Part shown: one piece after another, positions 17,641 through 49,900 of the stretch | Numbering within the stretch: the first letter of the stretch is position 1 | How the letters are laid out: every line of letters starts with the position of its first letter | Assembly (NCBI GenBank): GCA_020137815.1 | Contig: CM035359.1 | Span: 1,984,001-2,048,000, forward strand | DNA: 64,000 nucleotides | Origin: Hormiphora californensis | Lineage: Eukaryota > Animalia > Ctenophora | Reading direction: 5' to 3' | Program-made: the position numbers and the translations under genes | The notes under the pieces: generated by a model | Databases searched by the model: none | Told to the model about the DNA's origin: nothing | Seen by the model: the letters and a program-made list of their open reading frames with translations, nothing else

Positions 17641-20600
17641 ATGCAGTTTTTTCACTTGGCTCCCATTTTATTTGAACTGTAAGTGACTCCCAATAAAACA
17701 TTATACATTGTTCAATTCTGTATTTCTATCGATCATCATGGTCTAATGTTTCATTATTTTTCAACTTTTCAGGCTGTTTCCCTGCCTTTTAGTTATCTCT
17801 TCTGAAGCAAGTCAGTATATTTATTCATTGAAGCTTTGCTGAAGTCAATTAAAGATACAAGAGAGTGGCCACTAGTGGACAGGATCAGAATTGGACTAGT
17901 TTATTGGAGGTTGTAAAGATTAGTTATATGAGCATTATTCCTCTTTTGCCGCTCAAAATTAACCCATCCATCACTGAGATTTTTCTATCCTGTTTGATAA
18001 ATATTGATCCAGCAGGAATTCCCCGAGAGTAACGAAAATTATATCTCAGTGATGGATGGTTCGATTTTGAGCGGCCAAAAGGCAAAATGCTCATAGAACT
18101 AATCTCTACTACCTCCAACAAACTTTTCCAATCCTGATTCTGTCCACGCACACTTTAAATAATACCATTAGCAGCAATTTGATACGAGCTTCTTTAAGGT
18201 CCCAGCAAGTTCGCCTTTTCTAAACAACCCTCTACGACAAGTGTCGACACTGGAACCACTGTCACACTATCATGCGAGGCTGGGGGAAGAACTGGTATCT
18301 CATACCAATGGTACAGCCTGGCAGCTGGATTCAATGTTCCTCCCGAAGATAGTAATAAGATTGGGGGGCAAACAGCGACTACATTAGAAGTAGCGGAGGG
18401 TATTTATAGCAACTCGATGTTCCAGTGTATGGCAACTGCAGGGGAAGAATCGATATTTAGTGACGTTGCCACTGTCACTTTTTATATTCCTGCAACAAGT
18501 AAGGATCACTTTGGGTTTTGAATTCGAATTTATGGTTTCATTGAGTTCTCCTAACAACTTATATTTGCAGCCATAAGTTTTAGTGGTACGGTCACTACTG
18601 ACACCGTTTCTACTTCATCTGATATTAGAAATAACGATGCCTGGGTTTTTACGCTCAAGTGTAACAAAGACGCTGGGTTTGATCCGGACACCCAGATCAC
18701 CAGTGGTTCTGTGTACAATGTAAAGTGGTATAAAGGCGGTGTGGAAGTAGCAGATGATAACAAATGGATATATACTAGGGCAGGCGAGAACAAGCTGGTA
18801 GCTAATGGTCAAAATGCGGTTTTCCCAAATATTAACCTTGAGAAGTACAGCCTGGTTATATTCAACATAAAGACATCAGATGCTGGAGAATATACCTGTA
18901 AAGCAGTTAACACAGCTGGAGGCTCTGTCTTACTTGGAACTGTCACAATTAGTAGTGTTGGTACAACTATATCTGATAACGACTGGTATTTAAAATCAAA
19001 AACATCATTGGCTGCTGGGTATACTGTTCAAGCTCTAAACTCTGATGGGACAATCAAGACGACACCCTCTGTTGGCGATACCGTTCTATTATCCTGCGGA
19101 GGGGTTTGTAAACCAGCAGGCAGTACTTCCAATTCTATCAGTTACAAGTGGACACTGGAAGGCGATATAAACACTATCCTCTCTGATGACAGAGAATACA
19201 GTGCGACCATGTCATCTACAAATACTGTAACCTACCAGTGTAGAATAACAAATAGCGATTGTGTGGACAGTAACATATCTACCAAAGGATCAGTGTCACT
19301 TTCAGCCACAGGTATTTAAATGAAGAACATTTATTATTTTTGGTAAGGAGTAAGTAAAGGAAGATACTGATCATATCTCGCTGGTAACATTGAGTTTAGC
19401 TCGGTTGAACTTCTAACTCTTTAATTTCAGCTGCTACTATCAGTTACTCCTACACGTTTGATTCATCCCTTCCTTCCTATATATGGTGGGAATCTGACAG
19501 TTCGAAGTCAGCAGATCTCAGTATAGCCTGTACTGGAACTGGATCCGGAGGAACTTTAGTAAAGAAAGTATACCAAAATGGTGTACCAAAATCAACTTCT
19601 CCACCTTATACAATCTCTGCTGCTCCATCTAATAGCGGTGCTTACCAATGCGTTATTTTTAACGATGGGGATAACGTGTTCTTGACTCAGCATACAACTG
19701 AAGTTCTTATTGGTGTTGGTAAGTACCTACTCGTCACATGTAAAATTGTAGGTATCTACATTCTACACTCCAAGCTCAACTAAAATTCCCCTTTCCAGAA
19801 AACCCGACAGCTGCCCTAACTTATTCTCCCACAATATACCGTATTGGTGAAACTGCTACCTTAACTTGTACCATTACTGGTTACCCAATTTCATCGGTAC
19901 AAATAAGCCTGGACGGAGGATCAGCTCTTACAACTACCGAAGTCAGCTCAACTGTTTATACGGCTACTATTGGCTCATTCTCTGTTTCGGATGCTGTAAA
20001 ATACACGTGTAGTGTGTCAATTCAGTGGTATAAAACTGATGGCGGGGACGCACAAACCGAAACTAAAACCAGTGATCTCACCTTGGAGTATGGTAAGTTT
20101 GGTGTACTCTTCTGAAGCAAGTCAGTATATATAATTCGTTGAAGCTTTGCTGAAGTCAAGTTTTAAATAATACCATTAGGAGCAATTTGATACGAGCTTC
20201 TTTCAGGTCCCAGTAAGTTCGCCTTTTCCAAACAACCCACCACAACAAGTGTCGACACTGGAACCACCGTCACACTATCATGTGAGGCTGGGGGAAGAAC
20301 TGGTATCACATACGAATGGTACAGCCTGGCAGCTGGATTTAATGTTCCTCCCGAAGATAGTGATAAGATTGGCGGGCAAACAGCGACTTCATTAGAAGTA
20401 GCGGAGGGTATTTATAGCAATTCGATGTTCCAGTGTATAGCTACTACAGGGGAAGAGTCGATATTCAGTGACGTTGCTACTATTAGATTTAATATTCCTG
20501 CAACAAGTAAGAATCACTTTTAATCTTTGAATTCGAATTTTTGGTTTCATCGAGTTCTTCTAACAACTTATATTTGCAGCCATAAGTTTTAGTGGTACTG

Positions 20601-23600
20601 TCACTACCGAAACTGTATCTACTTCATCTGATATTATGAATAACGATGCCTGGGTTTTCACACTCAAGTGTAACAAAGACAGTGGGTTTGATCCGGACAC
20701 TCAGATCACCAGTGGTTCTGTGTACAGTGTAAAGTGGTATAAAGGCGGTGTGGAAGTGGCAGATGATAACAAGTGGATATACACCAGTGCAGGCACCAAT
20801 ACACTGTGGTTTGATGCTGCGGGAGCGTTTCAAAAAACAATAACTCTAGAGAAGTACAGCCTGGTTATATTCAACATAAAGACATCAGATGCTGGAACGT
20901 ATACCTGTAAAGCAGTTAACACAGCTGGTGGCTCTGTCTTACTTGGAACTGTCACAATCGGTAGTGTTGGTACAACTATATCTGATAATGCCTGGTATTT
21001 AAAATCAACAACATCTTTGGCTGCTGGGTATACTGTTCAAGCTCTAAATTCTGATGGGACAATCAAGACAGCACCCTCTATTGGTGATACTGTTCTATTA
21101 TCCTGCGGAGGGGTTTGTAAACCAGGAGGCAGTACTTCCAATTCTATCAGTTACAAGTGGACACTGGAAGGCGATCTAAACACTATCCTCTCTTCTGACA
21201 GAGAATACAGTGTGACCATGTCATCTACAAGTACTGTAATCTACCAGTGTAGAATAACAAATAGTGATTGTGTGGACAGTACCACAACTACCAAAGGTGC
21301 AGTATCTCTCACACCCACAGGTATTTAAATGAAGAACAGTTATTCTTTTTGGTACTCGAGAAAGGAAGATTACTGATCATATCTCGCTGGTAACATTCTA
21401 ACTCTTTAATTTCAGCTGCTACTACCAGTTACTCCTACACGTTTGATTCATCGCTCCCTTCCTATATATGGTGGGAATCTGACAGTTCGAAGTCAGCAGA
21501 TCTCAGTATAGCCTGTACTGGAACCGGTTCCGGAGGGACTTTAGTAAAGAATGTATACCATAATAGTGTATCAAAATCAACTTCTCCACCTTATACAATC
21601 TCTGTTGCCTCATCTAATAGTGGTGCTTACCAATGCGCTATTACTAACAATGGGGATAACGTATTCTTGACACAACATACAACTGAAGTTCTTATTGTTG
21701 GTAAGTACCTACTCGTCACATGTAAAATTGTAGGTATCTACACAGTACACTCCAAGCTCAACTAAAATTCCCCTTTCCAGAAAGCCCGACAGCTGCCCTA
21801 ACTTCTTCTCCCATAATATACCGCACTGGCGACTCAGCTACCCTAACTTGTACCATTACTGGTTACCCAATTCCATCGGTACAAATAAGCCTGGACGGAG
21901 GATCAGCTCTTACAACTACCGAAGTCAGCTCCACTGTTTATACGACTACTATTGGTTCATTCTCTGTTTCGGATGCTGGAAAATACACGTGTAGTGTGTC
22001 AATTCAGTGGTATAAAACTGATGGCGGGGACTCACAAATTGACACTAAAACCAGTGATCTCACCTTGGAATATGGTAAGTTTGGTGTAAATAATTGAGAC
22101 CAATCAAAGTAGGTATCATGTACTCACCTCAAAGCTGCGAGTTCCTTTATACAGTCCGACCTCGATTTAACAGCACCCTCGAAATGGTTGACTCTGTAAA
22201 ATCTAATTAATATAGTTGTCACGGTTTCATCATTTTTTCAGTGCAAGATGCTACAACAACGCTCACATCTACTCCAGTATCCCCTTCCAAAGGGGACTCA
22301 GTAACTATAACATGTGTGGTTGTTGGCTACCCTGCACCTTCTCAACCTGTTTTATCTAAAGATGATAGCAGTATTATTTTTTCTGGGGGAAGTTCTGGGA
22401 CTAATACCAAGACATGCAACCATGTGATTACTGACGCTCAGTATACACATGGTGGAACTTACACGTGTGTTGGAAGCAATACTGTTGACAGTGTAGACAA
22501 AACAGACAATAAAACTGTTGAAATCAATATTGGTGCGTTAAAACAGGTGTTTCATAGAAGCCCCAATTCATTTTACTGTTTAACCGAAATCTATATACAG
22601 TCGGACCCCGATTTAACGGCCCCCGATTTAGCGGCACCCCGATTTAACGGCAGCATAATCTTCCCCCGATATAGAAAATTAACAGTATTTAACCCCGATT
22701 TAGCGGACACCCCGATTTAACGGACAAAACCCTTTCCCCCAAGGGTGCCGTTAAATCGGGGTCCGACTGTAGTATATTTATTTTGTTATTGGTCATGGTC
22801 ATTCCCAAACATCTTTTAGTTGGAGAAGAGGAAGTTTCTATGGTGATTAAAAACGGCGCTGACAAGACTCTCACCGGTTCAACCATTGAAATATCAAAAG
22901 GATCAACTCTGAAAATTACCTGCACTGTAGACGGCAATCCTAAACCTGCATCCATTACTCTGAAGAAAAATGGCACAGCAGTGGCTGGTACGACAACTTC
23001 TCAAACCGACTATTCTAGGACTGTGGAGGTGTCAATCGGCAATTTGGAATTATGGGATTCAGGTATTGTGAGCTAATTTACAGCTGTACTCCTCTAATAT
23101 ACTTTGAACTATGGTGTTGGGATAAAAATGATTCTGAGTAGTGCAGTGGAAAAATCATATATGTATTATGTTATTTAAGAAACTGTCAATATTCTCAGGT
23201 GAATACAAATGTGAAACGACAAAGAACGACAGTACAACTGCAGGTCCCTTTGTTACTCAAAAAGTGGCGGTAATGTTCATGTTAGCGGTTAATGTCACTA
23301 TTGGTGTCAGTACAGAGTACCCAACCCTTGCCGCTCAAGTTGTGTTTACCTGCATAGCCATTGGAGGTAAGAAAATAGCCATAGATAAATTATTTAATCT
23401 CTCAGCCGGTTGACTGTATTTCGATCCTTCTTTCCACAGGTGACCGACCATATGAAGTTATTTTGAGAAGAAATGGGAATGATTTCATAAAGTACACTGA
23501 AACAAACTCCTTTTGTACAGAAGACAATGATTATCAGCTTACTTGTACCCACACTATCAACAAGTTTGGTAAGTCTCAGTAATCCGGGAATATTATATTG

Positions 23601-26600
23601 GCAAGAATATGAGTTGTAAAAATACCATGAATTTCGAGTTTCCTGTACTGATGCTTGATCTTATTCCTAGGATACGACAACAACAATGATTACACGTGTT
23701 ACGCTAAGAATCAGATAGCCAATAATGAAGAAAAAGTTGCTACTTCAACCACTGTGACCGTTGAGGTTTCCAAGAAGGTTGAAGTGTCCATGGAACCAAC
23801 GAGGTAATGTGCTGGTATCATCAAGTCGGCTTGTCGTGATTAACGTCCTCGTAAAATATCAAAATTACTAACTTCTCTTCAGTGCAACAGATGTGAAGAA
23901 GTCAACAGGCTCAAACATCATAACATGTCATGTAGATGGTGGTGCTGCACCTTATCGTGTTACCCTCGATAGACCCAATTCACAGGACACCATTGAGTGG
24001 ACAGAAGATGGGTATGGTTATTTAAAATTACCTTTTGCATAAATACAGGCCAAGTGAACTTCAGGTGGTTAAACTAACATAATGTTTCCTTGTAGCTCAG
24101 TAAATTCATTGAATTGTGAAGAGGTAGACGTGCACGTCTACCTCGACATGTCGAATGTACTCAAGTGTACTCATACTCTTAACAAAGTGGACTATGCAGA
24201 TAGTGGTCAGTAAAAAAATGCAAACTTGTAAATGGTCTCTGGTGTCATTTCCCAATGGATTACATATGGTACATATAATGACTCAGCTCTCCCCTCTAGG
24301 AACGTTCACTTGTACAGGCTACAACGAGCTAGCTGATGGGGATACACAACAAACAGACACATCAACCTTAGACATCACTATCACATATGGTGTTCAAGTG
24401 ACTCTGTCAGCCTCGCCTACTGTTATAGCTGTAGGAGAGGCTATAATAGTAGCAAGCTTTGGGGGTACTGTCACGGTTACGTGTGTAGCTGAGGGTGGAC
24501 GAACTCCCCATTACATGGTATGTCAGGGTAACTCACGTTAGACATATAAATTACGCGTTTTACCTATCGCAACACCGTTTAGACTAAAATACATATCAAT
24601 GTATTCAACAGAGGTTTTGTTACAGGAGTTGACTAAAGATGATATCCCACTGGTTATTTACAACACTGATGACACTAGCAGCAATATCCTGGCTGACAAA
24701 GTGGTTGCAAAAGATAACAAGTTAACTCTAATATACGAAATTAGCTCCATTGGTTTTTATGATAACGGAGTATATGAGTGTGAATCGAAAAACAAAGCCT
24801 TCAATAAAGCTATTGCAACTAATGGTCAAGAACTCGAAATTGTTGTTGGTAAGTTGATTTTAATGATTTTATAGTTTAGGATATTTATACATACTATATA
24901 ATATATAGTATATTTCCAACGCAACCGCGCCGGGATCAAGTCTTTATCTTTATTATATCAGGAGCCGGAAATATGATCAAAATGATTTGTCACGCACAAA
25001 AACATTCCGTGCAACCATTTAGTCTCTCGACTTATTTCAGAGAATGTGTTTTTGGGAACTCCCAGCTGTTTTTCTCTCCGGAACAATCCGTTGCAAAAGA
25101 TGACCTTGTGACAATTGAGTGCCGAGTGGGCGGTTTTCCAGAACCGACAGTAGGACTTTCCCTTCAAGTTGGCAAGAACAAGGTGTTTCTTGAACATACT
25201 TCTAAATTTTACAATTACAACACCGAAAATGCAGAAAGGGTTAGTTTCCGAATCTTGTAACGATGTTATTAATTACGTTCAACGAGTCGCCGTTTGGTAT
25301 TTTCTCGTCGGCAGGCGGCAATGCCGATCGTGTCTGTTGAAGACAGAACTTGGCTTCCTGCTTTCTCAATGTGTCACAAATTAGGTAAGATACTCATGGA
25401 ATATAGTTCCATCTCTAGATGCATGTTTCATGTAGGTACTTACGGTGACGGTTATATTTGAATATTTTTCAACCTGTGACGATGCAAAATACACGTGTAC
25501 AGCTGTGGAAGGTGGAGATGAAAGTAACAAAGTAGCCCAATCTGTTTTCCAAGCCATCCCCAATTGTTAAGGGCTGTACAGGTATTCTCAAATCAATTGT
25601 ATCAATCATAGCTGAAGACGTCTGACATAGATCAGTCGAAAGCTCCTGTTCTTAATTGAATATTAGTACTGCAAAATCGTTGTTTCTCTTTAATTGTCAA
25701 TTGTATCAATTAGGGAGTTTAGGTACTTACTTAGGTACTTACTAACCATGAAGCTCTAAATTATAGCCCCTGCCTCACCAGGTAGTTTAAAAATAATTTC
25801 CCTCCAAAGACTGCAATTGTGCTACCCCAATATTCACTGATTCTACTAATTTCATGCCAATGCCTCAGATTTCAGGCCATTTATTATCGGAGGTGGTGTT
25901 GGAGTTGGTGGGTTTATCTTGGTGGCAGCTATTATCATTGTGATTATCCTCCTGTTTGTGTGGGTCAAGAGGCGGGGACGCAAGAAGGATACCATCACAG
26001 ACCAAACCAATGAAGCTGCTTTTAGGTGCGTATAAAGTAATTTTGATATAGCTGATTCTTGCTCTTTTAGACTTTTATAATCTGATGCAAACCAGTTTCT
26101 TTTCTCAGGAATGAAACCTTTTCGAATTCACCAGCAACAGCACCGCCAGGTATTTTATCACACAATTTCACGGCAATTTTGCATTTGCGGGCATCGCACT
26201 ATAGACGCAGTACCCACGTACTATAGACGCATTATAAACGCATTATAAACGCATTATAGACACACGCAATATAGACGCAATTTCGTAAGCAGCACTATAG
26301 ACGCAATATAGACGCATTATAACAGCAATATAAACGCATTTTTATAGACGCGACGCAGTATAGCCGCATTATAGGCGCACTACCCACCCCAAAATCACCT
26401 TATAGACGCACTATAGACGCATTATAGACTGACTATAGCAGCACCATAAACGCTACATAGACCCATATAGACGCATGATAGAAGCATTATAGACGCAAAT
26501 CGCTTTTTATAGACGCCGCGTCTATAAAAAACGTGCTTTTTTAAGAAGCACTATAGACGTACTCAGACGCACGCTGCCATATTTGAGGCGCAGTTGGGCG

Positions 26601-28977
26601 AACTATAAACGCATTTTTGTCGCATATAAAAGGAAGCAGTATAGACGCATTATAGACGCATTATAGACGCATGTGCGCGAAATCGATAAAGACGCAATAT
26701 AGACGCAATTAATAAGAAGGAGAGGGAGAGAGACTAGAGGGAGGGAGGGAGGGAGAGAGACTAGAGGGAGGGAGGGAGGGAGAGAGACTAGAGGGAGGGA
26801 GGGAGGGAGAGAGACTAGAGGGAGGGAGGGAGAGGGAAGGAGAGGGAAAGAGGGAGGGATACAGATCTGAGACAGATGGGGGGCCCCCCAAAATGTCGCT
26901 CGGCAATTTCCGCATTGGCTCGGTGATTGGTTCGGTAACAACAGGTGGTTTGCCGAGCCATGCGGCCTTGTGCGGTAAGTTTTCGGCGACCTCCTTGACT
27001 CTCCGAACCACTGGTTCGGCAAACCACCTGTTGTCACCGAACCAATCACCGAGCCAATGCGGAAATTGCCGAGCGACATTCTGTCCCTGTACCCCTCCCT
27101 CAGTCCCTCCCTCTCCTTCCCTCTCCCTCCCTCCCTCGCCTCTCTCTCCCTCTCCTTTTTATTTTGCGTCTATATTGCGTCTTTATCGATTTCGCACACA
27201 TGCGGCTATAATGCGTCTATAATGCGTCTATACTGCTTCCTTTTATATGCGACAAAAATGCGTTTATAGTTCGCCCAACTGCGCCTCAAATATCGCACTG
27301 TAGCCTGGAGTACGTCTAAAGTGCTTCTTTAAAAAGCACGTTTTTTATAGACGCGGCGTCTATAAAAAGCGATGTGCGTCTATAATGCTTCTATCATGCG
27401 TCTATATGGGTCTATGTAGCGTTTATGGTGCTGCTATAGTCAGTCTATAATGCGTCTATAGTGCGTCTATAAGGTGATTTTGGGGTGGGTAGTGCGCCTT
27501 TAATGCGGCTATACTGCGTCGCGTCTATAAAAATGCGTTTATATTGCTGTTATAATGCGTCTATATTGCGTCTATAGAGCTGCTTACGAAATTGCGTCTA
27601 TATTGCGTGTGTCTATAATGCGTCTATAATGCGTTTATATTGCGTTTATAATGCGTCTATAGTACGTGGGTAATGCGTCTATAGTGCGATGCCCGCAAAT
27701 GCAAAATTGCCCAATTTCACAGCCCACGCCAATTTTATTTTGTTTGGGAGTATGTGGAGATGCAGGGTATACCGACTAGACTATTTTACCAGAAATGTTC
27801 ATATGAATTAATAATGACCTCATTTCCACTTCATTTTTTCCCTGCCCGGGTGAATGCCGAAGGCATTCACCCGGATGCCTTTTTACTTTGTAAAAAGGCA
27901 TAGCATGGTTAGAATTCGAAAACGACATTTTGGTATACTAACTAATCGGTAGAGGGACCATTTTGGTCACACTTTCGTTGCGAGGGCAACGGCGTAGCAA
28001 CTAGAGCCGCGCGCACAACAACACGGTGCTCCTTCATCAAAACTTCCAATGACGCGATTCCTTGGACGTGGTGTGCGCGCACCACTCAGCAAAACATGAA
28101 ATAGCGCTGCCGCGCGTTTCGCGTGTTACATACACATGATCATCTTGCGAGTCGAATGTGAAAGGTTAGATAAGTAGTTAAGTTGGAATGTCAAAAGCTA
28201 GTTAGCAAGTGTCATGTGAGTTAGCTAAGCTATGTGAGAAGTATACTGACAGCTAGATCGTATGCATCTCACATTACATTACGACCAAGCCTTGCATTGA
28301 TCCTGTTGGCAGTGATACGTGAAACGGTAGGGCAGGGAAACACAGCATTATGAATACATAATGCAATAATTCTTGTTGGGTAAATGAGGCTCGTACAACA
28401 ATTCATATGAGGTTAACATGTTAACATCCATGATTAGGTCAATACGAACTGTCCTCATATGATACAATTGACCCGGAAAGACAGGCATACATGGTAAGAA
28501 TCAATTTCGTACTTTTGTTATATGAGACATCGATAAAACATTTTCTTTTGAACCACAGTCAACGTCATTCCACCCCTCCCCCCCCCTCAGCTCAGAAAGA
28601 AAAAGGAAAGAGAATCGTACGTAGTCATGAAGCCCTCAACCACCTCGGTAAAAGCTTACAATTAAATTTCCTGTGTCATACCTTACACTACCTCACTGTG
28701 GTCTGAGCGATTCAGACTCTGAATGGCTCAGTGAAAAGGTACATAAAACGAGACCCGGATCTCTCTCCTATAATAGGTCCCCGTGTATAATGATGATGTG
28801 GATGTTATTAGAAACAGTCCTACACGATTTCAAGAAGAACCTATTTATATTCCACCCGTCTACGAGCATATGGAGGTGGTGAGATTGAAAGAGAGTATTT
28901 ATAATGTTCATGTTTATGTTTATTGTTTACTTTACTTGGCGCCAAATTATCATGTACATGTATGGGTATATGTATAG
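17641..28977 (+). CDS. Type-I membrane multi-Ig-domain receptor, gene A: signal peptide, 5-Ig module x2, 6 further Ig domains, TM, Tyr-motif tail
   Basis: Exons 17641-17678, 17773-17810, 18199-18498, 18571-19311, 19431-19718, 19799-20092, 20207-20506, 20580-21320, 21416-21700, 21781-22074, 22242-22532, 22820-23062, 23199-23366, 23440-23568, 23671-23803, 23883-24011, 24096-24205, 24300-24517, 24626-24848, 25041-25239, 25436-25581, 25767-25781, TM 25869-26025, 26109-26149, 28438-28493, 28591-28647, 28777-. Signal peptide MQFFHLAPILFELLFPCLLVISSEA; C..W..DxGxYxC Ig motifs; TM FIIGGGVGVGGFILVAAIIIVIILLFVWV then KRRGRKK. One +1 T near 25548; stop position uncertain. Confidence 0.88.
22598..22769. 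mobile_element. Tc1/mariner-pogo-type MITE (TA TSD) in an intron of gene A
   Basis: TIR cagtcggaccccgattta; absent from B copies; family members at 35492-37897 and 55600-55778. Confidence 0.85.
25607..25696 (+). ncRNA. Minimal type-I hammerhead ribozyme motif in a short Penelope-like insertion
   Basis: atag-CTGAAGA-cgt-ctga(cataga)tcag-tc-GAAA-gct-C-ctgt; palindromic AGCT stem III; flanked by repeated tcaattgtatcaat; degenerate copy at 13405-13495. Confidence 0.6.
26172..27711. mobile_element. Foldback/MULE-like element with ~540-bp inverted arms of 11-bp subrepeats
   Basis: TIR ggcaattttgcatttgcggg; 9-bp TSD CAATTTCAC; empty site in block B (~53740). Confidence 0.92.
27832..28377 (+). mobile_element. 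Helentron-associated HINE-like element
   Basis: Same subTIRs and 3' hairpin as 1228-1868; inserted in a T-run; empty site in block B (~53860). Confidence 0.75.
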
Positions 28978-29873: not shown

Positions 29874-29927
29874 GGTGTGCAAATTGCATTCAAATATACA
29901 CATTGCATGCAATGTATGCATTGGCAA

Positions 29928-30746: not shown

Positions 30747-30858
30747 TTATACACCGTCAGACACTAATTGGCAATCGCATTTACATGTTCCCAGTCTGTC
30801 AGCCGCTCAAATATCTTTCCTTGAAATTTGAAATTTCTGAATTTTATTTATTATTTAA

Positions 30859-32248: not shown

Positions 32249-32260
32249 TGAAACCCTTAA

Positions 32261-33025: not shown

Positions 33026-33080
33026 GATTTTAGTTTTTCCACGATTTTCTTTTCCTAATCGGCCGATATCGGACTCTATA

Positions 33081-35341: not shown

Positions 35342-35491
35342 ATAGGGCTATCGATTCTCTAACAGATACCGTTTAGTTTACGCGCGCGTTCAACTCTCAA
35401 CCTCGTGACACACACTGAAGTTCGAAGTTTCGCGGAAAAGTTCGAAGTTTCGCGAAAACCCATTTTCGGCTGAGAAATCATTTGTAAGATA

Positions 35492-38579: not shown

Positions 38580-38638
38580 TGGCGTGAGAGTGTGACATAA
38601 GAAAGAGAGAGAGAGAGAGAGAGAGGAGAAGAGGAGAG

Positions 38639-38684
<46 letters not shown>

Positions 38685-38687
38685 GGA
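38580..38687. repeat. (GA)n microsatellite
   Basis: Directly visible. Confidence 0.95.
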
Positions 38688-39276: not shown

Positions 39277-42200
39277 ATGCAGTTATTTCACTTGGCTCCC
39301 ATTCTATTTGAACTGTAAGTGACTCCCAATAAAACATTATGCATTGTTTAATTCTGTATTTCTATCGATCATCCGCGTAGTCTAATGTTTCATCATTTTT
39401 CAACTTTTCAGGCTGTTTCTCTGCCTTTTAGTTACCTCTTCTGAAGCAAGTCAGTATATTTATTCGTTGAAGCTTTGCTGAAGTCAATTAAAGATTGTTT
39501 CTATCCTGTTTGATAAATATTGATCGAGCAGGAATTCCCCGCGCCGAGAGTAACAAAAAATATCTCAGTGATGGATGGTTCGATTTCGAGCGGCAAAAAG
39601 CTCATAGAACTAGTCTCTATAACTACCTCCAACAAACTTGTCCAATTCTGATTCTGCCACACTCACTTTAAATAATACCATTAGCTGCAATTTGATACGA
39701 GCTTCTTTCAGGTCCCAGTAAGTTCGCCTTTTCCAAACAACCCACCACAACAAGTGTCGACACTGGAACCACCGTCACACTATCATGTGAGGCTGGGGGA
39801 AGAACTGGTATCACATACCAATGGTACACCCTGGCAGCTGGTTTCAGCGTTCCTCCCGAATATAGTGATAAGATTGGCGGGCAAACAGGGACTAAATTAG
39901 AAGTAGCGGAGGGTGTTCATAGCAATTCGATGTTCCAGTGTATGGCAACTGCAGGGGAAGAATCGATATTCAGTGACGTTGCCACTGTTACTTTTAATAT
40001 TCCTGCAACAGGTAAGGATCACTTTTGGACTTTGAATTCGAATTTATGGTTTCATTGAGTTCTTCTGACACCTTTTATTTGCAGCCATAAGTTTTAGTGG
40101 TACTGTCACGACTGACGCCGTTTCTACTTCATCTAATATTATGAATAACGATGCCTGGGTTTTCACACTCAAGTGTAACAAAGACAGTGGGTTTGATCCA
40201 GACACCCAGATCACCAGTGGTTCTGTGTACAGTGTAAAGTGGTATAAAGGCGGTGTGGAAGTAGCAGATGATAACAAGTGGATATACACCAGTGCAGGCA
40301 CCAATACATTGGAGTTTGATGGTCAAGATGCGATAAAACATACTTTTACTCTAGATCAGTATAGTCTTGTTATCTTCAACATAAAGACATCAGATACTGG
40401 AACGTATACCTGTAAAGCAGTTAACACAGCTGGTGGCTCTGTCTTACTTGGAACTGTCACAATCAGTAGTGTTGGTACAACTATATCTGATAACGATAAT
40501 GCCTTCTATTTAAAATCAAAAACATCTTTGGCTGCTGGGTATACTGTTCAAGCTCTAAACTCTGATGGGACAATCAAGATGACACCCTCTGTTGGTGATA
40601 CCGTTCTATTATCCTGCGGAGGGGCCTGTAAACCAGGAGGCAGTACTTCCAATTCTATCAGTTACAAGTGGACATTGGAAGGCGATCTAAACACTATCCT
40701 CTCTAATGACAGAGAATACAGTGTGACCATGTCATCTACAAGTTCTGTAACCTACCAGTGTAGAATAACAGATAGCGATTGTGTGGACAGTACCATATCT
40801 ACCAAAGGATCAGTGTCACTTTCAGCCACAGGTACTATCAAGAAAGAAGAACATTTATTATTTTTGGTAAGGAGTAAGTAAATGAAGATAACTGATCATA
40901 TCTCGCTGGTAACATTGAGTTTAGCTCGGTTGAACTTCTAACTCTTTAATTTCAGCTGCTACTATCAGTTACTCCTACACGTTTGATTCATCCCTTCCTT
41001 CCTATATATGGTGGGAATCTGCCAGTTCGAAGTCAGCAGATCTTAGTATAGCCTGTACTGGAACCGGTTCCGGAGGGACTTTAGTAAAGAATTTATACCA
41101 AAATGGCACATCAAAATCAACTTCTCCACCTTATACAATCTCTGCTGCCTCATCTAATAGTGGTGCTTACCAATGCATTATTTATAACGATGGGGATAAC
41201 GTGTTCTTAACTCAGCATACAACTGAAGTTCTTATTGTTGGTAAGTACCTTGGCTACCCATTCGTCACTGTATAAATATGGTTGGTGACATATAGACACC
41301 TTGCGCGACCCCCGCACACAGCTCAATCTGTCGCGCACGTTGTCTATGTCACCAATAAATATGGTAGCTGTATCCAGGCTCAACTAAAATTATCCTTTTC
41401 AGAAAGCTCGACAGCTGCCCTTACTGCTTCTCCTACAGAATACCGTACTGGTGAAACTGCTACCCTAACTTGTACCATTACTGGTTACCCAATTTCATCG
41501 CTACACGTAAGCCTGGACGGAGGATCAGCTCTTACAACTACTGAAGTCAGCTCCACTGTTTATACGGCTACTATTGGTTCATTCTCTTTTTCGGATGCTG
41601 GAAAATACACGTGCAGTGTGTCAATTGAGTGGTATAAAACTGATAACGGGGACGCACAAACCGAAACTAAAACCGGTGATCTCACCTTGGAGTATGGTAA
41701 GTGTGGTGTAAATAATTGAGACCAATCAAAATAGGTACTTACATAAAATTGCGAGGTCTTTTATACTATGTATATCACGAAAAAGTTGACTCTGTAAAAT
41801 CTAATTAGTAGTTATCACGGTTTAATCTGTTTCATCCTTTTTTCAGTACAAGATGCTACAACAACGCTCACTACTAGTCCTGCATCCCCTTCCAAAGGGG
41901 ACTCAGTAACTATAACATGTGTGGTTGTTGGCTACCCTGCACCTTCTCAACCTGTTTTATCTAAAGATGATAGCGATATTACTTTTTCCGGGGGATGTTC
42001 TGGGACTAATACCAAGACATGCAACCATGTGATTACTGACGCTCAGTATACTGATAGTGGAACTTACAAGTGTGTTGGAAGCAATACTGTTGACGGTGTA
42101 GACAAAACAGACAATAAAACTAGTGGCATCAATATTGGTACGTTAATACAGGTCACAGGTGTTTCATAGAAGCCCCAATTCAAGTTACTGTTAACCGTCA

Positions 42201-45200
42201 ACCGAAATCTATATATTTATTGATCATTCTCAAACATCTTTTAGTTGGGAGTGAGGAAGTTTCTATGGTGGTTAAAAACGGCGCTGATGAGACTCTCACC
42301 GGTTCAACCATTGAAATATCAAAAGGATCAACTCTGAAAATTACCTGCACTGTAGACGGCAATCCTAAACCTGCATCCATTACTCTGAAGAAAGGTGGCA
42401 CAGCAGTGGCTGGTACGAAAACTTCTCAAACCGACTATTCTAGGACTGTGGAGGCGTCAGTCGGCAGTTTGGAATTATGGGATTCAGGTATTGTGAGCTA
42501 ATTTACAGCTGAAACTCTTTGAACCATGGTGTTGGGATAATAATGATTCTGAGTAGTATAGTGGAAAACTCATCTTATGTAATACTGCAATCTATGTCAA
42601 TATTCCCAGGTGAATACAAATGTGAAACGACAAAGAACGACGGTACAGCTGGTCCCTCTTTTACTCAAACAGTGGTGGTAATGTCAGCGGTTAATGTCAC
42701 TATTGGTGTTAGTACAGATACCCAACCCTTGACGCTCAAGTTGTGTTTACCTGCATAGCCATTGGAAGTACGAAACCAGTCATAGATAAATTATTTGTCC
42801 TCTCAGCCGGTTGACTGTACTTCAAACCTCCTTCCCACAGGTGACCGACCATATGAAGTTATTTTGAGAAGAAATGGGAATGATTTCATAAAGTACACTG
42901 AAACAAGCTCCTTTTGTACAGAAGACAATGATTATCAGCTTACTTGTACCCACACTATCAACATGTTTGGTAAGTCTCAGTAATCCGGGAATATTATATT
43001 GGCAAGATGAGTTGTAAAAATACCATGAATTTTGAGTTTCCTGATATACTGATGCTTGATCTTATTCCTAGGATACGACAATAACAATGACTACACGTGT
43101 TACGCTAAGAATCAGATAGCCAGTAATGAAGAAAAAGTTGCTACTTCGACCACTAAGACCGTTGAGGTTTCCAAGAAGGTTGAGGTGTCCATTGAACCAA
43201 CGAGGTAATGTGTCGGCTTATAAGTGTTCTTGTCGTGATTAAAGTCCTCGTAAAGTATCAAAATTACTAACTTCTCTTCAGTGCAACAGATGTGAAGAAG
43301 TCAACAGGCTCAGACATCATAACGTGTCATGTAGATGGTGGTGCTGCACCTTATCGTGTTACCCTCGATAGACCCAATTCACAGGACACCCTTGAGTGGA
43401 CAGAAGATATTGGGTATGGTCTTTTTTGATTACCTTTGCATAAATACAGGCCAAGTGAACTTCAGGTGGTTAAACTAACATAATGTTTCCTTGTAGCTCA
43501 GTAAATTCATTGAATTGTGAAGAGGTAGTCGTGTCGAATGTACTCAAGTGTACGCATACTCTCAACAAAGTGGACTATGCAGATAATGGTCAGTAAAAAT
43601 CTGCAAACTAGTGAATGGTCTTTGGTGTCATTTTCAATGAAGTTCATTGACTCATCCTCTCCTCTAGGAACGTTCACTTGTACAGGCTACAACGAGCTAG
43701 CTGATGGGGATACACAACAAACCGACACATCAACATTAGACATCACCATCACAGAAGATGTTCAAGTGACTCTGGCAGCCTCACCTACTGTAACTGTAGG
43801 GGGTGAAATGGAAGCAAGCTTTGGGGATACTGTTACGGTTACATGTGTAGCTGAGGGTGGACGAACTCCCCATTACATGGTACGTAACTTGTAATAATGA
43901 TCAACTTGAAATGTAAAAACTAAACACGAGGTGATCAAAAAGTCATTTTCTTCGTTACAGGAATTGACTAAAGATGATACCCCACTGGTTGTTTACAACA
44001 CTGATAACACTAGCAGCAATATCCTGGCTGACAAAGTGGTTGCAAAAGATAACAAGTTAACTCTAACATACGAAATTAGCTCTATTGGTTTTTATGATAA
44101 CGGAGATTATGAGTGTGAATCGAAAAACAAAGCGTTCAATAAAACTGTTGCAACTGATAGTCAAGAACTGAACGTAGTTGTTGGTAAGTAGGATGTCAGT
44201 TTCTTCATTTGCTTTTTGGATAAAATAAAAAATAATAGTATGAACAATACAAAGCAGTGAATATGCAGATTGAAAAGTAATTGTAACATCAAAATTAATC
44301 GTTCTCCCGCTCTCAGTAAAAGTTGTTAAGATTGGAACTCTGAGCGACCTAAAAGTAGATTATGATGGATCAGTGGCCGTCAATTTTACTGTGACTGGAG
44401 GAAGATCTCCGAAATCAGTTAAAGTGGCCAACAGCGCCCACACAATCCTGGACTGGCCTAATAGCAGTGGTGATTGTACGGGTAACAACGAGCTTCAATG
44501 TAGTGTAACTATGACTGCTGATCAGTGGAGCTACGATGGCCAGTATACCGTTACAGCGAAGAATGATGCTGGCCAGAGTCAGGAGGCTGAAGATACTAAA
44601 ACGTTTGAAGTTACAGTGTTCATGGATGTAGAAACAGATATTGCAATAAGCGAAAGTAAGGGCAATAATTTTAATTTAGGTACCAATGCTCGCTTGCTAT
44701 GTCAAAATTTAAATGTATTATTGGCAGCACTAAAACCACATTCTTTAGGTAACCCTGCACAGATAACGTACGGAAAAGACCTCACTATAACGTGTACCGC
44801 AGAGGGCGGGGAAGAACCCCATTCCATGAAACTGACATACCCTGATAATACTGGTGAGTAATTGTGCTGAAAGTTCTAAACTCTGACCGTCGTCTGTCGA
44901 TAATCAGTCAAATAATCATACCCCTCTACAGAGTATAAATGGGATCGAAATGGGGCTGGTACGGATAGTTTGACTTGTCTTGGTGACCACGTAGTGACCT
45001 GTACACACGTCCTCACGTCCCCTGGGTACACCTCTGATGGTAGTTACACTTGTACTGGCTATAACGTTGGGAGTGATGGAGGTGTAAATTCAACCAGCGC
45101 TGTTCAACTGACAATTGGTAAGTTTATTAATCTAAGAGGATCTTCCAAACCTTCTAAATACCTCGAACTTTTACACCATCCTCCTAAATTTAGTCCAAGA

Positions 45201-45580
45201 TCCACTGGTTTCCACTTCTCTCACCGAACTCAGCATGCTGACTACTGATACCAAGAGTGTTAACTGTACTGTGGCATCTAAACCGAAATTGGAAAGGATA
45301 AGGTAGATTCAGGGGGTTTCAAAAATATTATCAAAGACTAATCGAATTTCAAATGTTCAGTCTTCCATAGTCGGTGATTTTCTCCTCGCTCTAAAATTAT
45401 CCATCCCTCAGATAAAATGGAAGTACCCTAATGGCACGGAAGTGGATCACGACAGTATGGTCGTTTACAGAGCTATTGATTCTCATACTTGGAGCGTCAG
45501 AGTTAACTTTGACCACGCCCTCTAAAGACGCAGAGGGAGGGTATAAGTGTGTGGCTGACGGGGTTGAAAAGAGTGTTTTG
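39277..45580 (+). CDS. Multi-Ig receptor copy B1: signal peptide, Ig1-10, plus three extra Ig domains (~44317-45580); 3' end lost in low-quality sequence
   Basis: ATG 39277 MQLFHLAPILFELL...; exons colinear with gene A; unique exons VNFTVTGG...DGQYTVTA, LTITCTAEGG...DGSYTC, VNCTVAS...WKYPNG; 1-bp deletion near 42718. Confidence 0.82.
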
Positions 45581-46950
45581 TGGGGGGTTTGAAATGAAAA
45601 AATGAAAGAGTTGAGTGTTTCGTAATGTTGATTGAAAAGAGTGTTGAGTTTGAAAATGAAATGAAAAATTGAAATTGGAAATTTGAAAAGAGTGTTTGTT
45701 GTTTTTAAAGGGTTGAATGAAAAAGGAGGTGTGTTTGAAATTTGTTGTTGAAAAAGACGTGTTTAAGTGGTGTTTGAAAAAGAGTTTCAGACTGTTTTAG
45801 TTGTTTTTTGTAGTGTTTTTACGTCCCGTATCGCAGGTAGGTAATCATGGCGGGGAAAGGGAGTTGAGTGTTGGAGGGTAAAGGGGAAAATTTGATTTTT
45901 TGGAGTGTGTTGATTTGGGGTGCTGTTTGGGTGTTGGAGAGTTGTTGTACTGTTGAATTATTCATAGCACCCATGCCTGTTTTGTTCGTGATTGTGTTTT
46001 TGAGTTCTTATTTTTGTCTTGTTTTCAGGGTTTTTTGGTTTTATTGGGTAGTTTGTTTGTTTCTAGCGTAGATCTCGATCCAGTAGTGGGTTTTCCCAGA
46101 CCAATGGTCCAAAAATCCTTTCAAGAGAGGAAGGTTTTTGGGTAATCCCACCAAGCTCAGCTTGTTTTTATCTCCGGAACAATCTCGTTTGCAAAAGAAT
46201 GAGAAGCTGTAGATAGGGGGGTGTTGTTTGCGTCGCGTGTTGTAAACGATTAATGTTTGAAGTTAGTGTGAGAGGGAGCGTATGTGAAGCGCGAGTTTTT
46301 TTTCCAGCAGAAAACCGACACAGTGACAGTAGTAGTAGAGTTTAGTAGAGTTTCAGTAGGGGACTTTCCCTCTTTTAAAGTTGCCGAGAACAAGGGTTTG
46401 TGGTCTCTGGCTGAAACAATCCTTCTAAACTTATAACACCGAACGGAAAATAGAATCAAAGGGAAAAAAAAGAAAAAATGGCCTACGCAACGGTCCTAAC
46501 GTCAGTTTTCTTTATTTGATGTTCTTTTTCTCTATGTGTTTTTTTTGTGGAGAGGAGAGCGAGAAAACATGTACAGAAGTGTCAGTTCTAACTCTGTTTT
46601 TAGGTCCTCAAAGTAGCATTTGAACGCTCTGCAACCTGTGACGATACAGAATACACATGTACTGTCGTGGGGTGCAGAGGGAGATGAAAGTTACGTTGGT
46701 AACTAAGACTGTTACCGAGTCGTCCCCAATCATAGAGGACTGTACAGGTGGGTGCTTGGGGTGACATCCCTTCACCCAGGATCGGGAAAGGGTATAGTTA
46801 TCTGAACACACAGGCTATAGTGCTTCACACTAGCCAGCGTGGTATTAGAAGAAGAAGAAAAACATTTTAGGATTGGGTTAAACTGTTCGTCCAGTTATGC
46901 TAAGACAGAATAATCAGTTCAGGGGTGGGGGGTGGGGGGCGGCTTTGGCC
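45580..46950 (+). other. Degraded / low-accuracy sequence with faint homology to the last Ig exons
   Basis: e.g. tctccggaacaatctcgtttgcaaaagaatgag vs tctccggaacaatccgttgcaaaagatgac; insertion-rich, G/T-biased. Confidence 0.7.
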
Positions 46951-46984
46951 ACAATCTCAATACGATCAAGATGCATTCTTTCAG

Positions 46985-49900
46985 GTCCCAGTAAGTTTGC
47001 CTTTTCCAAACAACCCACCACAACAAGTGTCGACACTGGAACCACCGCTACATTATCATGCGAAGCTGGTGGAAGAACTGGTATCACATACCAATGGTAC
47101 AGCCTGAAAGCTGGCTTTAGTGTTCCTCCCGAAGATAATGATAAGATTGGCGGGCAAACGGCGACTTCATTAGAAGTAGCGGAGGGTATTTATAGCAATT
47201 CGATGTTCCAGTGTATAGCAACTGCAGGGGAGGAGTCTATATTAAGTGACGTTGCTACTGTTAGATTTAATATATTCCTGCAACAAGTAAGGATTAATTT
47301 TGGGCTTTGAATTCGAATTTATGGTTTCATTGAGTTATTCTAACACCTTTTATTTGCAGCTATAAGTTTTAGTGGTACTGTCACTACCGAAACTGTATCT
47401 ACTTCATCTGATATTTCGAATAACGATGCTTGGGTATACACGCTAAAATGTAACAAAGACGCTGGGTTTGATCCGGACACACAGATCACCAGTGGTTCTG
47501 TGTACAATGTAAAGTGGTATAAAGGCGGTGTGGAAGTAGCAGATGATAACAAGTGGATATGCACCAGTGCAGGCACCAATAAACTGGGCTTTGATGCTAC
47601 GGGAGCGTTTCAAAAAACAATAACTCTAGAACAGTACAGCCTGGTTATCTTCAACATAAAGACATCAGATGCTGGAGAATATACCTGCAAAGCAGTTAAC
47701 ACAGCTGGTGGCTCTGTCTTACTTGGAACTGTCACAATTAGTAGTGTTGGTGCAACTATATCTGATAACGCCTGGTATTTAAAATCAAAAACATCATTGG
47801 CTGCTGGGTATACTGTTCAAGCTCTAAACTCTGATGGGACAATCAAGACGACACCCTCTGTTGATGATACTGTTCTATTATCCTGCGGAGGGGTCTGTAA
47901 ACCAGGAGGCAGTACTTCAAATTCTATCAGTTACAAGTGGACATTGGAAGGTGATCTAAACACTATCCTCTCTTTCTGACAGAGAATACAGTGTGACCAT
48001 GTCATCTACAAGTATTGTAACTTACCAGTGTAGAATAACAAATAGCGATTGTGTGGACAGTACCACAACTACAAAAGGAGCAGTGTCTCTCACACCCACA
48101 GGTACTATCAAGAAAGTGTGTGGTTGTTTGATTTAAAGGGTCAGTGCACAGGGTTAACATGGGTTGTGTTGAGTCTCCGTGGTGTGGGTCACGTTCCGCC
48201 CAAACTAGTCGGGTAGGCCAAAATCTAAACCACACCCAGGGGTCCCACACCAAGGAGACTAAACACAACCCAAGTTGACCCTGTGCACTGAGTTAGGCGT
48301 AAGTAATTTACTTATTGGGGCCCCATGGGGAAGAATCTCACGTGCAAAAGAGTATAATTGATATCTTGCTCAAATCCTGACTTAAATTAATTTCAGCTGC
48401 TACTACCAGTTACTCCTACACGTTTGATTCATCGCTCCCTTCCTATATCTGGTGGGAATCTGACAGTTCGAAGTCAGCAGATCTCAGTATAGCCTGTACT
48501 GGAACTGAATCCGGAGGGACTTTAGTAAATTCTGTATACCAAAATGGTGTATCAAAATCATATTCTCCGCCTTATACAATCTCTGATGCTTCATCTAATA
48601 GCGGTGCTTACCAATGCGCTATTACTAATAATGGGGATAACGTATTCTTGACACAACATACAACTGAAGTTCTTATTGTTGGTAAGTACCTACTCGTCAC
48701 ATGTAAAATTGTAGGTATCTACACTCCAAGCTCAACTAAAATTATTCTTTTCAGAAAGCCCGACAGCTGCCCTGACTACTTCTCCCACAATATACCGTAC
48801 TGGTGAAACTGCTACCTTAACTTGTACTATTACCGGTTACCCAATTTCATCGCGACACGTAAGCCTGGACGGAGGATCAGCTCTTACAACTACTGAAGTC
48901 AGCTCAACTGTTTATACGGCTACTATTGGCTCATTCTCTGTTTTGGATGCTGGAAAATACACGTGTAGTGTATCAATTGAGTGGTATAAAACTGATAACG
49001 GCGTCGCACAAACCGAAACTAAGACCAGTGATCTCACCCTGGAGTATGGTAAGTTTGGTGTAAATAATTGTCAATTGAGACCAATCAAAGCAGGTATCAT
49101 GTACTCACCTCAAAGCTGCGAGTTCCTTTATACAGTCCGACCTCGATTTAACAGCACCCTCGAAAAGGTTGACTCTGTAAAATCGAATTAATATAGTTGT
49201 CACGGTTTCATCCTTTTTTCAGTGCAAGATGCTACAACAACGCTCACTACTACTCCTGCATCCCCTTCCAAAGGGGACTCAGTAACTATAACATGTGTGG
49301 TTGTTGGCTACCCTGCACCTTTTCAACCTGTTTTATCTAAAGATGATAGCAGTATTACTTTTTCTGGGGGATGTTCTGGGACTAATACCAAGACATGCAA
49401 CCATGTGATTTACTGACGCTCAGTATACGCATAGTGGAACTTACAAGTGTGTTGGAAGCAATACTGTTGACGGTTTAGACAAAACAGACACTAAAACTGT
49501 TGACATCAATATTGGTACGTAAATATACATGTATTTCATAAATAAAAAGCCCCAATTCATGTTACTGTTTAACCGAAATCTGAATTTATTGGTCATTTCC
49601 AAACATCTTTTAGTTGGATGTTCCATGGTGGTTAAAAACGGCGCTGATGAGACTCTTCACCGGTTCAATCATTGAAATATCAAAAGGATCAACTCTGAAA
49701 TTTACCTGCACTGTAGACGGCAATCCTAAACCTGCATCCATTACTCTGAAGAAAGGTGGCACAGCAGTGGCTGGTACGACAACTTCTCAAACCGACTATT
49801 CTAGGACTGTAGAGGTTTCAATTGGCAATTTGGAATTATGGGATTCAGGTATTGTGAGCTAATTTACTCCTCTAATATACTTTGAACTATGGTGTTGGGA

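What the first reader, a model, noticed from the sequence alone, without database searches (positions are those of the whole stretch)
18571..47980. Ig-receptor array with a hypervariable patch in a V-type domain: candidate allorecognition/immune or self-avoidance system
Seen: four copies of the Ig2 exon (18571, 20580, ~40085, ~47360) are close to identical except for one same-length segment after KWI(Y/C)T. A1 RAGENKLVANGQNAVFPNIN; A2 SAGTNTLWFDAAGAFQKTIT; B1 SAGTNTLEFDGQDAIKHTFT; B2 SAGTNKLGFDATGAFQKTIT. A1 and A2 differ at 14 of 20 residues while the flanking strands are almost invariant. The domain has 78 residues between its cysteines (V-set-like), which places the patch in the C''-D region. 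Known: localized variation in membrane-distal V domains of tandem Ig receptors with Tyr-motif tails is the pattern of Hydractinia Alr1/Alr2, Dscam1 and vertebrate paired receptors. Inference: an independently evolved variable-receptor family, probably in an early-branching animal where I know of no described equivalent.
Basis: partly seen in the sequence, partly recalled or inferred. Interest (0 to 1): 0.88.

Follow-up and report, generated by a model that had tools for sequence, protein, structure and literature searches.

The report
Comb-jelly Ig receptors, ancient variable patch
A comb jelly carries a cluster of large cell-surface immunoglobulin-type receptor genes whose copies are nearly identical and swap DNA, except for one 20-amino-acid patch that comes in a few old versions shared with a related species and likely sets what each copy binds, though neutral drift is not excluded and the function is untested.

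Summary
Four copies of one Ig exon differ by 34-38% in a 60-base patch and by 2-14% elsewhere in the exon; 0 of 20,000 shuffles reach the peak.

The only close relatives with a name are Pleurobrachia bachei proteins, so this is a ctenophore. Gene A encodes a signal peptide, 16 Ig domains, one transmembrane helix and a tyrosine-rich tail.

The patch is old rather than fast-changing: dN/dS is 0.91 (about 0.33-2.7) and synonymous depth is 5.7-fold raised. The copies are recombination mosaics. There are three patch types, not four, and they recur in P. bachei (AU p=0.003). A low-confidence model places the patch on the C''-D edge of a V-like domain.

Best reading (0.5): alternative binding specificities kept by selection against gene conversion. 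A relaxed loop plus chance (0.25) is not excluded. Allorecognition is unlikely: the B patch is identical in both samples tested, and Pleurobrachia allografts fuse (PMC11565835). Six paper searches found no description of the family.

The parts
17641..28875 (+). Gene A: signal peptide, (Ig1-Ig5) x2, six further Ig domains, transmembrane helix, Tyr-rich tail; about 1,900 aa, last exon not found
   Evidence: GT-AG exon model with consistent phases. Two 1-nt frameshifts (near 25060 and 25545) are contradicted by short-read contigs of two samples (tables 4 and 8).
17641..17810 (+). Two signal-peptide exons of gene A (17641-17678, 17773-17810)
   Evidence: signal peptide judged by eye from a hydrophobic 25-residue N-terminus.
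18571..19311 (+). Ig2-Ig3 exon, copy A1
   Evidence: Pfam V-set 31.9 bits, I-set 35.9 bits.
18777..18836 (+). Variable patch, type A1; the same type occurs in P. bachei P0001 (14 of 20 identical)
20107..22088 (+). Internal tandem duplicate of 17797-20106 (end of signal exon 2 through the Ig5 exon), in frame
   Evidence: Self-BLAST 90%; junction printed; open reading frame.
20580..21320 (+). Ig2-Ig3 exon, copy A2
20786..20845 (+). Variable patch, type A2/C
   Evidence: exact 105-nt contig in run X2.
25876..26025 (+). Transmembrane exon of gene A (GxxxG-rich, no charged residue) with basic stop-transfer segment
26109..28875 (+). Four cytoplasmic-tail exons of gene A: one ITIM-consensus match, two YxxM motifs, no ITAM
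39277..46750 (+). Unit B: signal exons, Ig1-Ig10, extra Ig-like exons not found in A or C (44316-45570), degraded or poorly assembled 3' part; no transmembrane exon before unit C
40085..40831 (+). Ig2-Ig3 exon, copy B
40291..40350 (+). Variable patch, type B; the same type occurs in P. bachei P0003 (13 of 20 identical); identical in runs X2 and X5
46985..54784 (+). Unit C: Ig1 through transmembrane exon (53474-53623) and tail; no signal exons; five frameshifting indels in four of the exons aligned; may be the 3' half of one B-C gene
47360..48101 (+).
47566..47625 (+). Variable patch, type A2/C (4 of 60 bases differ from A2)

Best explanation
This is a cluster of ctenophore single-pass immunoglobulin-superfamily receptor genes whose copies are recombination mosaics of one another, while a 20-residue patch, predicted to form the C''-D edge of a V-like domain, persists as three old types shared with Pleurobrachia bachei, likely because selection keeps alternative binding specificities from being overwritten. 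Shown: the gene anatomy, the peak of divergence, the mosaic ancestry, purifying selection on the framework (omega 0.46), raised synonymous depth in the patch, and sharing of patch types across species. Inferred: unequal crossing-over and gene conversion keep the scaffold alike; conversion tracts that would erase a patch type are selected against, so silent differences build up beside the replacements; the patch is a surface that binds an outside ligand, most likely non-self (microbe or parasite surfaces) or a diverging partner receptor; binding is relayed by tyrosine phosphorylation of the tail and SH2-domain proteins. Gene A would display two specificities in one chain (domains 2 and 7).
For: Peak: 0 of 20,000 shuffles reach it. 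Mosaicism: 50 of 68 adjacent informative sites support the same split, against 26.4 expected, 0 of 20,000 permutations. One synonymous site (20743) is A in all four window copies and in all X2 and X5 depth, but G in 311 of 317 depth units over 9 contigs of organism B: a concerted-evolution signature at a single site. Patch age: dS is 5.7 times background, p=0.0006; the patch rejects a clade of window copies, AU p=0.003, and joins A1 with P0001 at bootstrap 93; A1-P0001 patch identity is 14/20 against 6-7/20 to its own neighbours, while its framework identity to P0001 (84%) equals that of the other copies (84-86%). Not a mutation hotspot: the B patch is identical in the window, X2 and X5. Neutral conversion gives such a peak in a window fixed beforehand in 0-32 of 3,000 and 0-7 of 1,500 runs. 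Framework omega is 0.46, LRT 23 against 1. Location: strands C' 64-67, C'' 71-76, D 84-89 in the model, matching the register of the CEA N-domain alignment. A peak of divergence under conversion is the published signature of such selection (PMC3924837, passages).
Against: Omega above 1 is not shown (0.91; interval about 0.33-2.7), and omega equal to background is not rejected (p=0.18). If every site were free to vary, neutral conversion gives such a peak somewhere in 1.6 kb in 0.3-39% of runs, and with flanks as low as observed in 0.2-14%; suppression of conversion by divergence itself was not simulated and would raise these figures. The framework tree is star-like and rejects neither a window clade (p=0.087) nor A1+P0001 (p=0.074), so homogenisation after speciation is not proven by the tree. 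The same segment is also the least conserved, and variable in length, in 36-40% identical distant relatives, as a tolerant loop would be. The model is weak (mean pLDDT 59, about 58 in the patch), and an I-set register with an inserted hairpin also aligns (titin). Strands C, C', F and G, the usual binding face, are nearly invariant. There is no RNA evidence for these copies, no ligand and no function. The ITIM consensus occurs in 20% of shuffled tails.
Confidence: 0.5

Rival explanations
1. Relaxed loop plus chance: the receptors are ordinary adhesion-type Ig proteins; the segment tolerates almost any sequence, and conversion has by chance, or because divergence blocks it, not passed over these 60 bases since old duplications.
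For: Omega 0.91, with differences spread evenly over codon positions (9/11/11 for A1-A2). The neutral simulation reaches the peak with low flanks in up to 14% of runs. The segment varies in length and has no invariant column in distant relatives. P. bachei frameworks are only 76-80% identical to each other, so retention there needs no selection.
Against: A window fixed beforehand reaches the peak in at most 1.1% of runs. L75 is invariant in 8 of 8 close relatives and the window copies keep length and frame. All three types recur in organism B. The B type is unchanged in two further samples.
Confidence: 0.25
2. Homophilic identity code: each patch type binds its own kind across cells, labelling cell types or neurites for sorting or self-avoidance, as clustered protocadherins or sDscam do.
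For: A few stable types shared by all individuals fit a hard-wired code; a long tandem Ig ectodomain; two types in one chain; in-frame phase-1 exon blocks could be skipped by splicing.
Against: Only three types in the window, far fewer than self-avoidance codes need (recalled); no mutually exclusive exon arrays or Fn3 domains; no expression data.
Confidence: 0.12
3. Allorecognition locus like Hydractinia Alr1/Alr2: the patch is an individual-specific self marker.
For: Clustered Ig receptor genes with conversion, a V-like domain and a Tyr tail. An A1-type patch in run X5 differs from A1 at two residues and two silent sites (read by eye from loose ends), so some polymorphism exists.
Against: The B patch is identical in the window and both samples tested. 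Variation is between paralogs and shared across species. Alr2 has 146 distinct domain-1 sequences with variation on strands C and C' (PMC8282982, passages), which are nearly invariant here. Pleurobrachia allografts fused in 8 experiments (PMC11565835, passages). Solitary pelagic life style (recalled).
Confidence: 0.08
4. Assembly artefact or dead genes: the array is two haplotypes joined in tandem, or the copies are pseudogenes.
For: Every unit carries 1-nt indels as assembled; 46180-46500 is only 61% identical to its counterpart with 21 gap openings; C has no signal exons.
Against: The A2 and B patches are present in independent contigs. Both frameshifts of gene A are contradicted by contigs. 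Units are 86-92% identical and B has private exons. Framework omega is 0.46. Three P. bachei gene models exist.
Confidence: 0.05

Closest known systems
Pleurobrachia bachei predicted proteins EP00116_P003589, P003266, P002114 (P0001-P0003; unannotated gene models)
   Same: Same Ig1-Ig2-Ig3 arrangement, 74-83% identity, same three patch types.
   Different: Fragmentary models without transmembrane helix or tail; no function or family description found.
Red/green opsin and similar duplicate pairs with a peak of divergence under gene conversion (PMC3924837, passages); ruminant CEACAM32 escaping concerted evolution (PMC7042247, abstract only)
   Same: Homogenised flanks, a local island of divergence, and the island grouping by type across species.
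   Different: Here the functional residues are unknown and neutrality is not excluded; four exon copies, two of them inside one gene.
Vertebrate CEACAM family and other paired Ig receptors (PMC5112662, passages)
   Same: Clustered IgSF genes, gene conversion, variation in an IgV domain near C''; the CEA N domain aligns in the same register (not significant alone).
   Different: The V-like domain is internal (2nd and 7th of 16). Conversion here spares the variable site, while in paired receptors it equalises the binding domain. No opposite tails or charged transmembrane residue in the window. No homology beyond the Ig fold.
Hydractinia Alr1/Alr2 and the 41-gene Alr family (PMC9546547, passages and section 10; PMC8282982, passages)
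   Same: Non-bilaterian cluster of single-pass Ig receptors with a V-type domain and Tyr motifs.
   Different: Alr domain 1 is N-terminal, lacks the two cysteines, is followed by few Ig domains and an Fn3-like fold, and has tens to hundreds of alleles varying on C/C'. This family keeps the canonical Cys-Trp-Cys, has 16 Ig domains and has a few trans-species types varying on C''-D.
Dscam1, sDscam and clustered protocadherins (recalled; sDscam Ig1 is the top but non-significant Foldseek row)
   Same: Repeated extracellular exons with localised differences on a shared scaffold.
   Different: No arrays of mutually exclusive exons, no Fn3 or cadherin domains, only three variants.

Membership tests
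Immunoglobulin superfamily, single-pass receptor | Ig domains with B-strand Cys, C-strand Trp and D-x-G-x-Y-x-C; signal peptide; one transmembrane helix | tested here: met
   Pfam Ig families above cut-off in most exons scanned; gene model.
V-set Ig domain | Pfam V-set match | tested here: inconclusive
   All four copies pass the V-set cut-off (28.5-36.2 bits against 26), but I-set scores as high or higher (35.5-36.6).
V-set Ig domain | Nine-strand V-frame with a C'' strand | tested here: inconclusive
   The AlphaFold2 model shows C' 64-67 and C'' 71-76 but at pLDDT about 58; fold searches give Z up to 6.3 with V- and I-set rows tied; an I-set register with a 21-residue insertion also aligns.
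V-set Ig domain | Cys23, Trp41, Leu89, Asp98, Tyr102, Cys104 (list from PMC9546547 section 10) | tested here: met
   C30, W52, L94, D103, Y107, C109 invariant in the four copies and four distant relatives; positions assigned by eye.
V-set Ig domain | Gly16 and Arg75 (same list) | tested here: not met
   Ala at the Gly16 position; Lys or no basic residue before strand D, which lies inside the patch; assigned by eye.
Hydractinia Alr family | N-terminal V domain without the two cysteines, 1-3 Ig domains, Fn3-like segment | tested here: not met
   Cys-Trp-Cys intact; V-like domain second; 16 Ig domains; no Fn3 hit in the exons scanned.
Hydractinia Alr family | Tens to hundreds of alleles per locus | tested here: inconclusive
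   Only two samples of the species laid: B patch identical, A1-type patch with two replacements.
Hydractinia Alr family | Allele-specific homophilic binding and control of fusion or rejection | not testable with these tools
   Needs cell aggregation and grafting; Pleurobrachia allografts fuse (PMC11565835).
Dscam1-type isoform system | Arrays of mutually exclusive alternative exons in one gene; Ig plus Fn3 architecture | tested here: not met
   Whole five-domain blocks are duplicated in series; no further patch cassette in the window; no Fn3 hit. Exon skipping itself could not be tested without RNA reads.
Paired activating/inhibitory receptors | Similar ectodomains with opposite signalling ends (ITIM versus ITAM or charged transmembrane residue) | tested here: not met
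   A and C have near-identical tails and uncharged transmembrane helices; no ITAM; one ITIM consensus, expected in 20% of shuffles. Only the window was searched; no whole genome is held.
Duplicates with a selection-maintained peak of divergence under gene conversion | Exchange between copies | tested here: met
   50 of 68 adjacent informative sites concordant, against 26.4 expected; one species-wide synonymous difference.
Duplicates with a selection-maintained peak of divergence under gene conversion | Peak older than the flanks and grouping by type across species | tested here: met
   dS x5.7; AU p=0.003 on the patch; framework tree unresolved.
Duplicates with a selection-maintained peak of divergence under gene conversion | Neutral origin of the peak excluded | tested here: inconclusive
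   At most 1.1% for a fixed window, up to 14% when any window may vary.

The most novel reading that the evidence does not exclude
Probability: 0.25. Interest if true: 0.85.

Novelty: new variant of a known kind. Interest (0 to 1): 0.55.

Why it matters
Ctenophore genomes hold hundreds of genes with I-set or V-set Pfam hits (PMC11797021, passages), but my six searches found none characterised as a recognition system, and ctenophores are reported to have reduced allorecognition (PMC11565835). A 20-residue patch with three trans-species types on an almost constant scaffold is a ready-made swap experiment for finding what ctenophore Ig receptors recognise. If the V-frame is confirmed, it bears on the origin of V-set domains, which PMC9546547 states had not been described outside bilaterians before Hydractinia. 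The evolutionary pattern itself (conversion with a protected island in clustered Ig receptors) is known from vertebrates, so the surprise lies in the lineage and in the sharpness and age of the patch, not in the mechanism.

Tried and rejected
Positive selection with normal synonymous divergence (omega 6.5): rejected against the model with raised dS, p=0.0006.

Compensating frameshifts, micro-inversion, or a donor cassette in the window as the source of the patch: none beyond chance.

Orthology to a conserved adhesion molecule: PDB and representative-library hits match only the E-F strand motif of multi-Ig proteins. Of the 150 listed hits, full-domain matches were P0001, P0004 and four unnamed proteins; of seven hits looked up, the two with names were hemicentin-like and perlecan.

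The first structure job on the two-domain exon was unusable (pLDDT 42). Fold searches gave only generic Ig matches.

No whole genome is held for this window, so family size is unknown. The metagenome scan by protein found no relative; the scan by DNA pattern found one chance match in an unrelated locus with compact, bacterial-looking ORFs (L001).

Expression: no RNA holder listed. Run X15, only guessed to be RNA, gave 13 short or divergent pieces, some looking like distant paralogs; X11 gave none. These blanks are no evidence.

No C-type or A1-type patch contig was laid in X2, and no A2/C-type in X5. The tool drops contigs by chance, so this is not absence; the Cys of KWICT and the frameshifts of C remain unchecked. 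Summed contig depths hint at about eight exon copies in X5 but are not copy numbers.

The ESM Atlas gave no answer. No complex prediction was run, since no partner is known. Supplements of the papers were not read; the gene lists of PMC11797021 may include these genes as domain counts.
Full report
OBSERVATION. A six-frame search finds KWI(Y/C)T exactly four times in the window, each followed by the quoted segment. Each exon encodes two Ig domains. Mean pairwise DNA difference is 0.34 and 0.38 in the two 30-base windows of the patch and 0.02-0.14 in the other 22. Over the 536 codons of the four repeated exons, the best 20-residue window scores 0.533, the next 0.258, and 0 of 20,000 shuffles reach the peak. 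A1 and A2 differ at 14 of 20 residues, but A2 and C at only 3, so there are three types. Short-read contigs of run X2 hold the A2 patch exactly and the 3' half of the B patch; run X5 holds the B patch.

ANATOMY. Gene A runs from an ATG at 17641 through GT-AG exons with consistent phases: two signal exons, Ig1-Ig5, an in-frame tandem duplicate of that block (junction at 20107), six more Ig domains, an uncharged transmembrane helix (25876-26025) and four tail exons to 28875, about 1,900 residues. The count of 16 domains rests on cysteine spacing and partial Pfam support. Two one-base frameshifts near 25060 and 25545 are contradicted by contigs of two samples (tables 4 and 8), so they are likely assembly errors. 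Unit B (39277-46750) has signal exons, ten Ig domains, private Ig-like exons, one further one-base frameshift and a degraded 3' part without a transmembrane exon. Unit C (46985-54784) has no signal exons, has five frameshifting indels in four exons, and has the transmembrane exon and tail. The tail has 8 tyrosines, two YxxM motifs, one ITIM consensus (found in 20% of shuffles) and no ITAM.

ORGANISM AND RELATIVES. The three close homologs among longer proteins are Pleurobrachia bachei gene models, 74-83% identical; one more comes from an unnamed contig. The best-holding runs carry a different species label from the runs whose main contig spells the P0003 patch (read by eye), so the window is from a ctenophore close to, but distinct from, P. 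bachei; I did not determine the species. A profile search of 1.84 billion representatives found 929 hits at E<=0.001. Among the 150 listed, nearly all match only the E-F strand motif of long multi-Ig proteins; four unnamed proteins match the whole domain at 36-40% identity. In them the same segment has no invariant column and varies in length.

WHERE THE PATCH LIES. All four copies pass the Pfam V-set cut-off, with I-set scoring equally. A model of Ig2 alone (mean pLDDT 59) has strands at 48-54, 57-59, 64-67, 71-76, 84-89, 94-99, 105-113 and 118-126, which puts the patch (69-88) on the C'-C'' turn, C'', the C''-D loop and D. The CEA N domain aligns in this register, while a titin domain aligns as an I-set with a 21-residue insertion; neither alignment is significant alone. 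Fold searches are generic, Z up to 6.3. Six of the eight canonical V-set residues listed in PMC9546547 (section 10) are present by eye. A second, weaker variable spot lies at residues 131-139 near the Ig2-Ig3 junction.

HOW IT EVOLVES. Nei-Gojobori means are pS 0.40 and pN 0.33 in the patch against 0.147 and 0.047 in the rest of the exon. A codon likelihood model on A1, A2 and B (C left out as a near-duplicate of A2) gives framework omega 0.46, patch omega 0.91 (about 0.33-2.7) and synonymous depth 5.7 times background (p=0.0006); omega equal to background is not rejected (p=0.18). At codons with the same amino acid, 6 of 25 pairs differ in the patch and 134 of 1,344 elsewhere. So the patch is old, and dN/dS above 1 is not shown.

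The copies are mosaics: of 69 informative sites, 50 of 68 neighbours support the same split, against 26.4 expected. On eight sequences, the patch rejects a clade of window copies (AU p=0.003) and groups A1 with P0001 (bootstrap 93), A2 and C with P0002 (79) and B with P0003 (44); the framework is star-like and rejects neither constraint. One synonymous site differs between the two species across all copies seen. A low-depth contig in run X7 keeps the second half of the A2 patch almost unchanged (inferred from depths; a minor individual or contamination is possible).

In neutral conversion simulations, a window fixed beforehand reached the observed peak in 0-32 of 3,000 and 0-7 of 1,500 runs. 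Allowing any window of a fully neutral 1.6 kb, it was reached in 0.3-39% of runs, and with flanks as low as observed in 0.2-14% (a first, smaller run is). Frameshift slips, inversion and donor cassettes were excluded.

BETWEEN INDIVIDUALS. Only two samples of the species were laid on the patch. The B patch is unchanged in both; X5 carries an A1-type patch with two replacements and two silent changes, read by eye from two loose ends. This is modest polymorphism on stable types, unlike Alr2 with 146 distinct domain-1 sequences (PMC8282982, passages).

MECHANISM. Most likely (0.5) the scaffold is kept alike by unequal crossing-over and conversion while selection preserves a few binding specificities at the C''-D edge, the peak-of-divergence pattern described in PMC3924837 (passages). 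The ligand is inferred to be non-self or a diverging partner, with signalling through tail tyrosines. Rivals are a relaxed loop plus chance (0.25), a homophilic cell-identity code (0.12), allorecognition (0.08; Pleurobrachia allografts fused, N=8, PMC11565835, passages) and artefact or pseudogenes (0.05).

COMPARISON AND NOVELTY. It evolves like opsin or CEACAM duplicates under conversion (abstract, 83 passages) and resembles Alr only in being a clustered non-bilaterian Ig receptor family; it fails the architecture tests for Alr, Dscam1 and paired receptors. Searches combining ctenophore or Pleurobrachia with immunoglobulin, allorecognition, gene conversion, innate immune, tandem receptor family and Dscam listed no description of this family. 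PMC11797021 counts hundreds of I-set and V-set genes in three ctenophores without describing them (passages); the invertebrate IgSF review PMC11999971 does not mention ctenophores (term count); PMC10084454 was seen in passages only. Supplements were not read. An earlier scan note reports a similar pattern in an octopus cluster (unchecked), which suggests the pattern recurs widely.

VERDICT. A real and sharply defined feature in an apparently undescribed ctenophore receptor family; a new variant of a known kind; interest 0.55.

Noticed in passing
window 4819-8034 (+) and 63106-63999 (-): Two intron-poor GPCR genes: the first has LDL-receptor class A repeats before a rhodopsin-family 7TM region and is frameshifted near 7070 and 7560 as assembled; the second shows only its 7TM part at the window edge.
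   Followed up: partly
window 61429-62670 (+): A 414-codon single-exon ORF with no Pfam hit at E<=0.1 and no significant PDB sequence match; a GRCGST motif recalls sulfotransferase PAPS-binding loops (recalled, untested).
   Followed up: partly
window 17875-18147: Nested inverted repeat (71-nt and 37-nt arms) in intron 2 of gene A, absent from the duplicate, at very high contig depth: a MITE-like element.
   Followed up: partly
window 26172-27711, 12658-15953, 30854-32253: Long inverted repeats (623, 270 and 611 bases, 93-98% identical) typical of foldback or DNA transposons; the first sits in a tail intron of gene A and is absent from unit C.
   Followed up: no
window 45570-46750: G/T-rich, gap-ridden sequence only 61-68% identical to the matching exons of gene A, where unit C is 94-96% identical: either an unpolished assembly stretch or a decayed 3' end of unit B.
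   Followed up: partly
window 54734-54784: A tail exon with a further tyrosine motif is present behind unit C but has no counterpart behind gene A in the window.
   Followed up: partly
window 18417-18482 and 20683-20784 (run X15): Contigs of a run guessed to be RNA match at about 80-90% and continue into related Ig-like sequence, hinting at more distant paralogs in the same species.
   Followed up: no
P0001-P0003: P. bachei gene models join Ig3 directly to Ig5 or Ig6, suggesting exon loss or shuffling of single-domain exons between family members; the models are fragmentary, so this may be annotation error.
   Followed up: no
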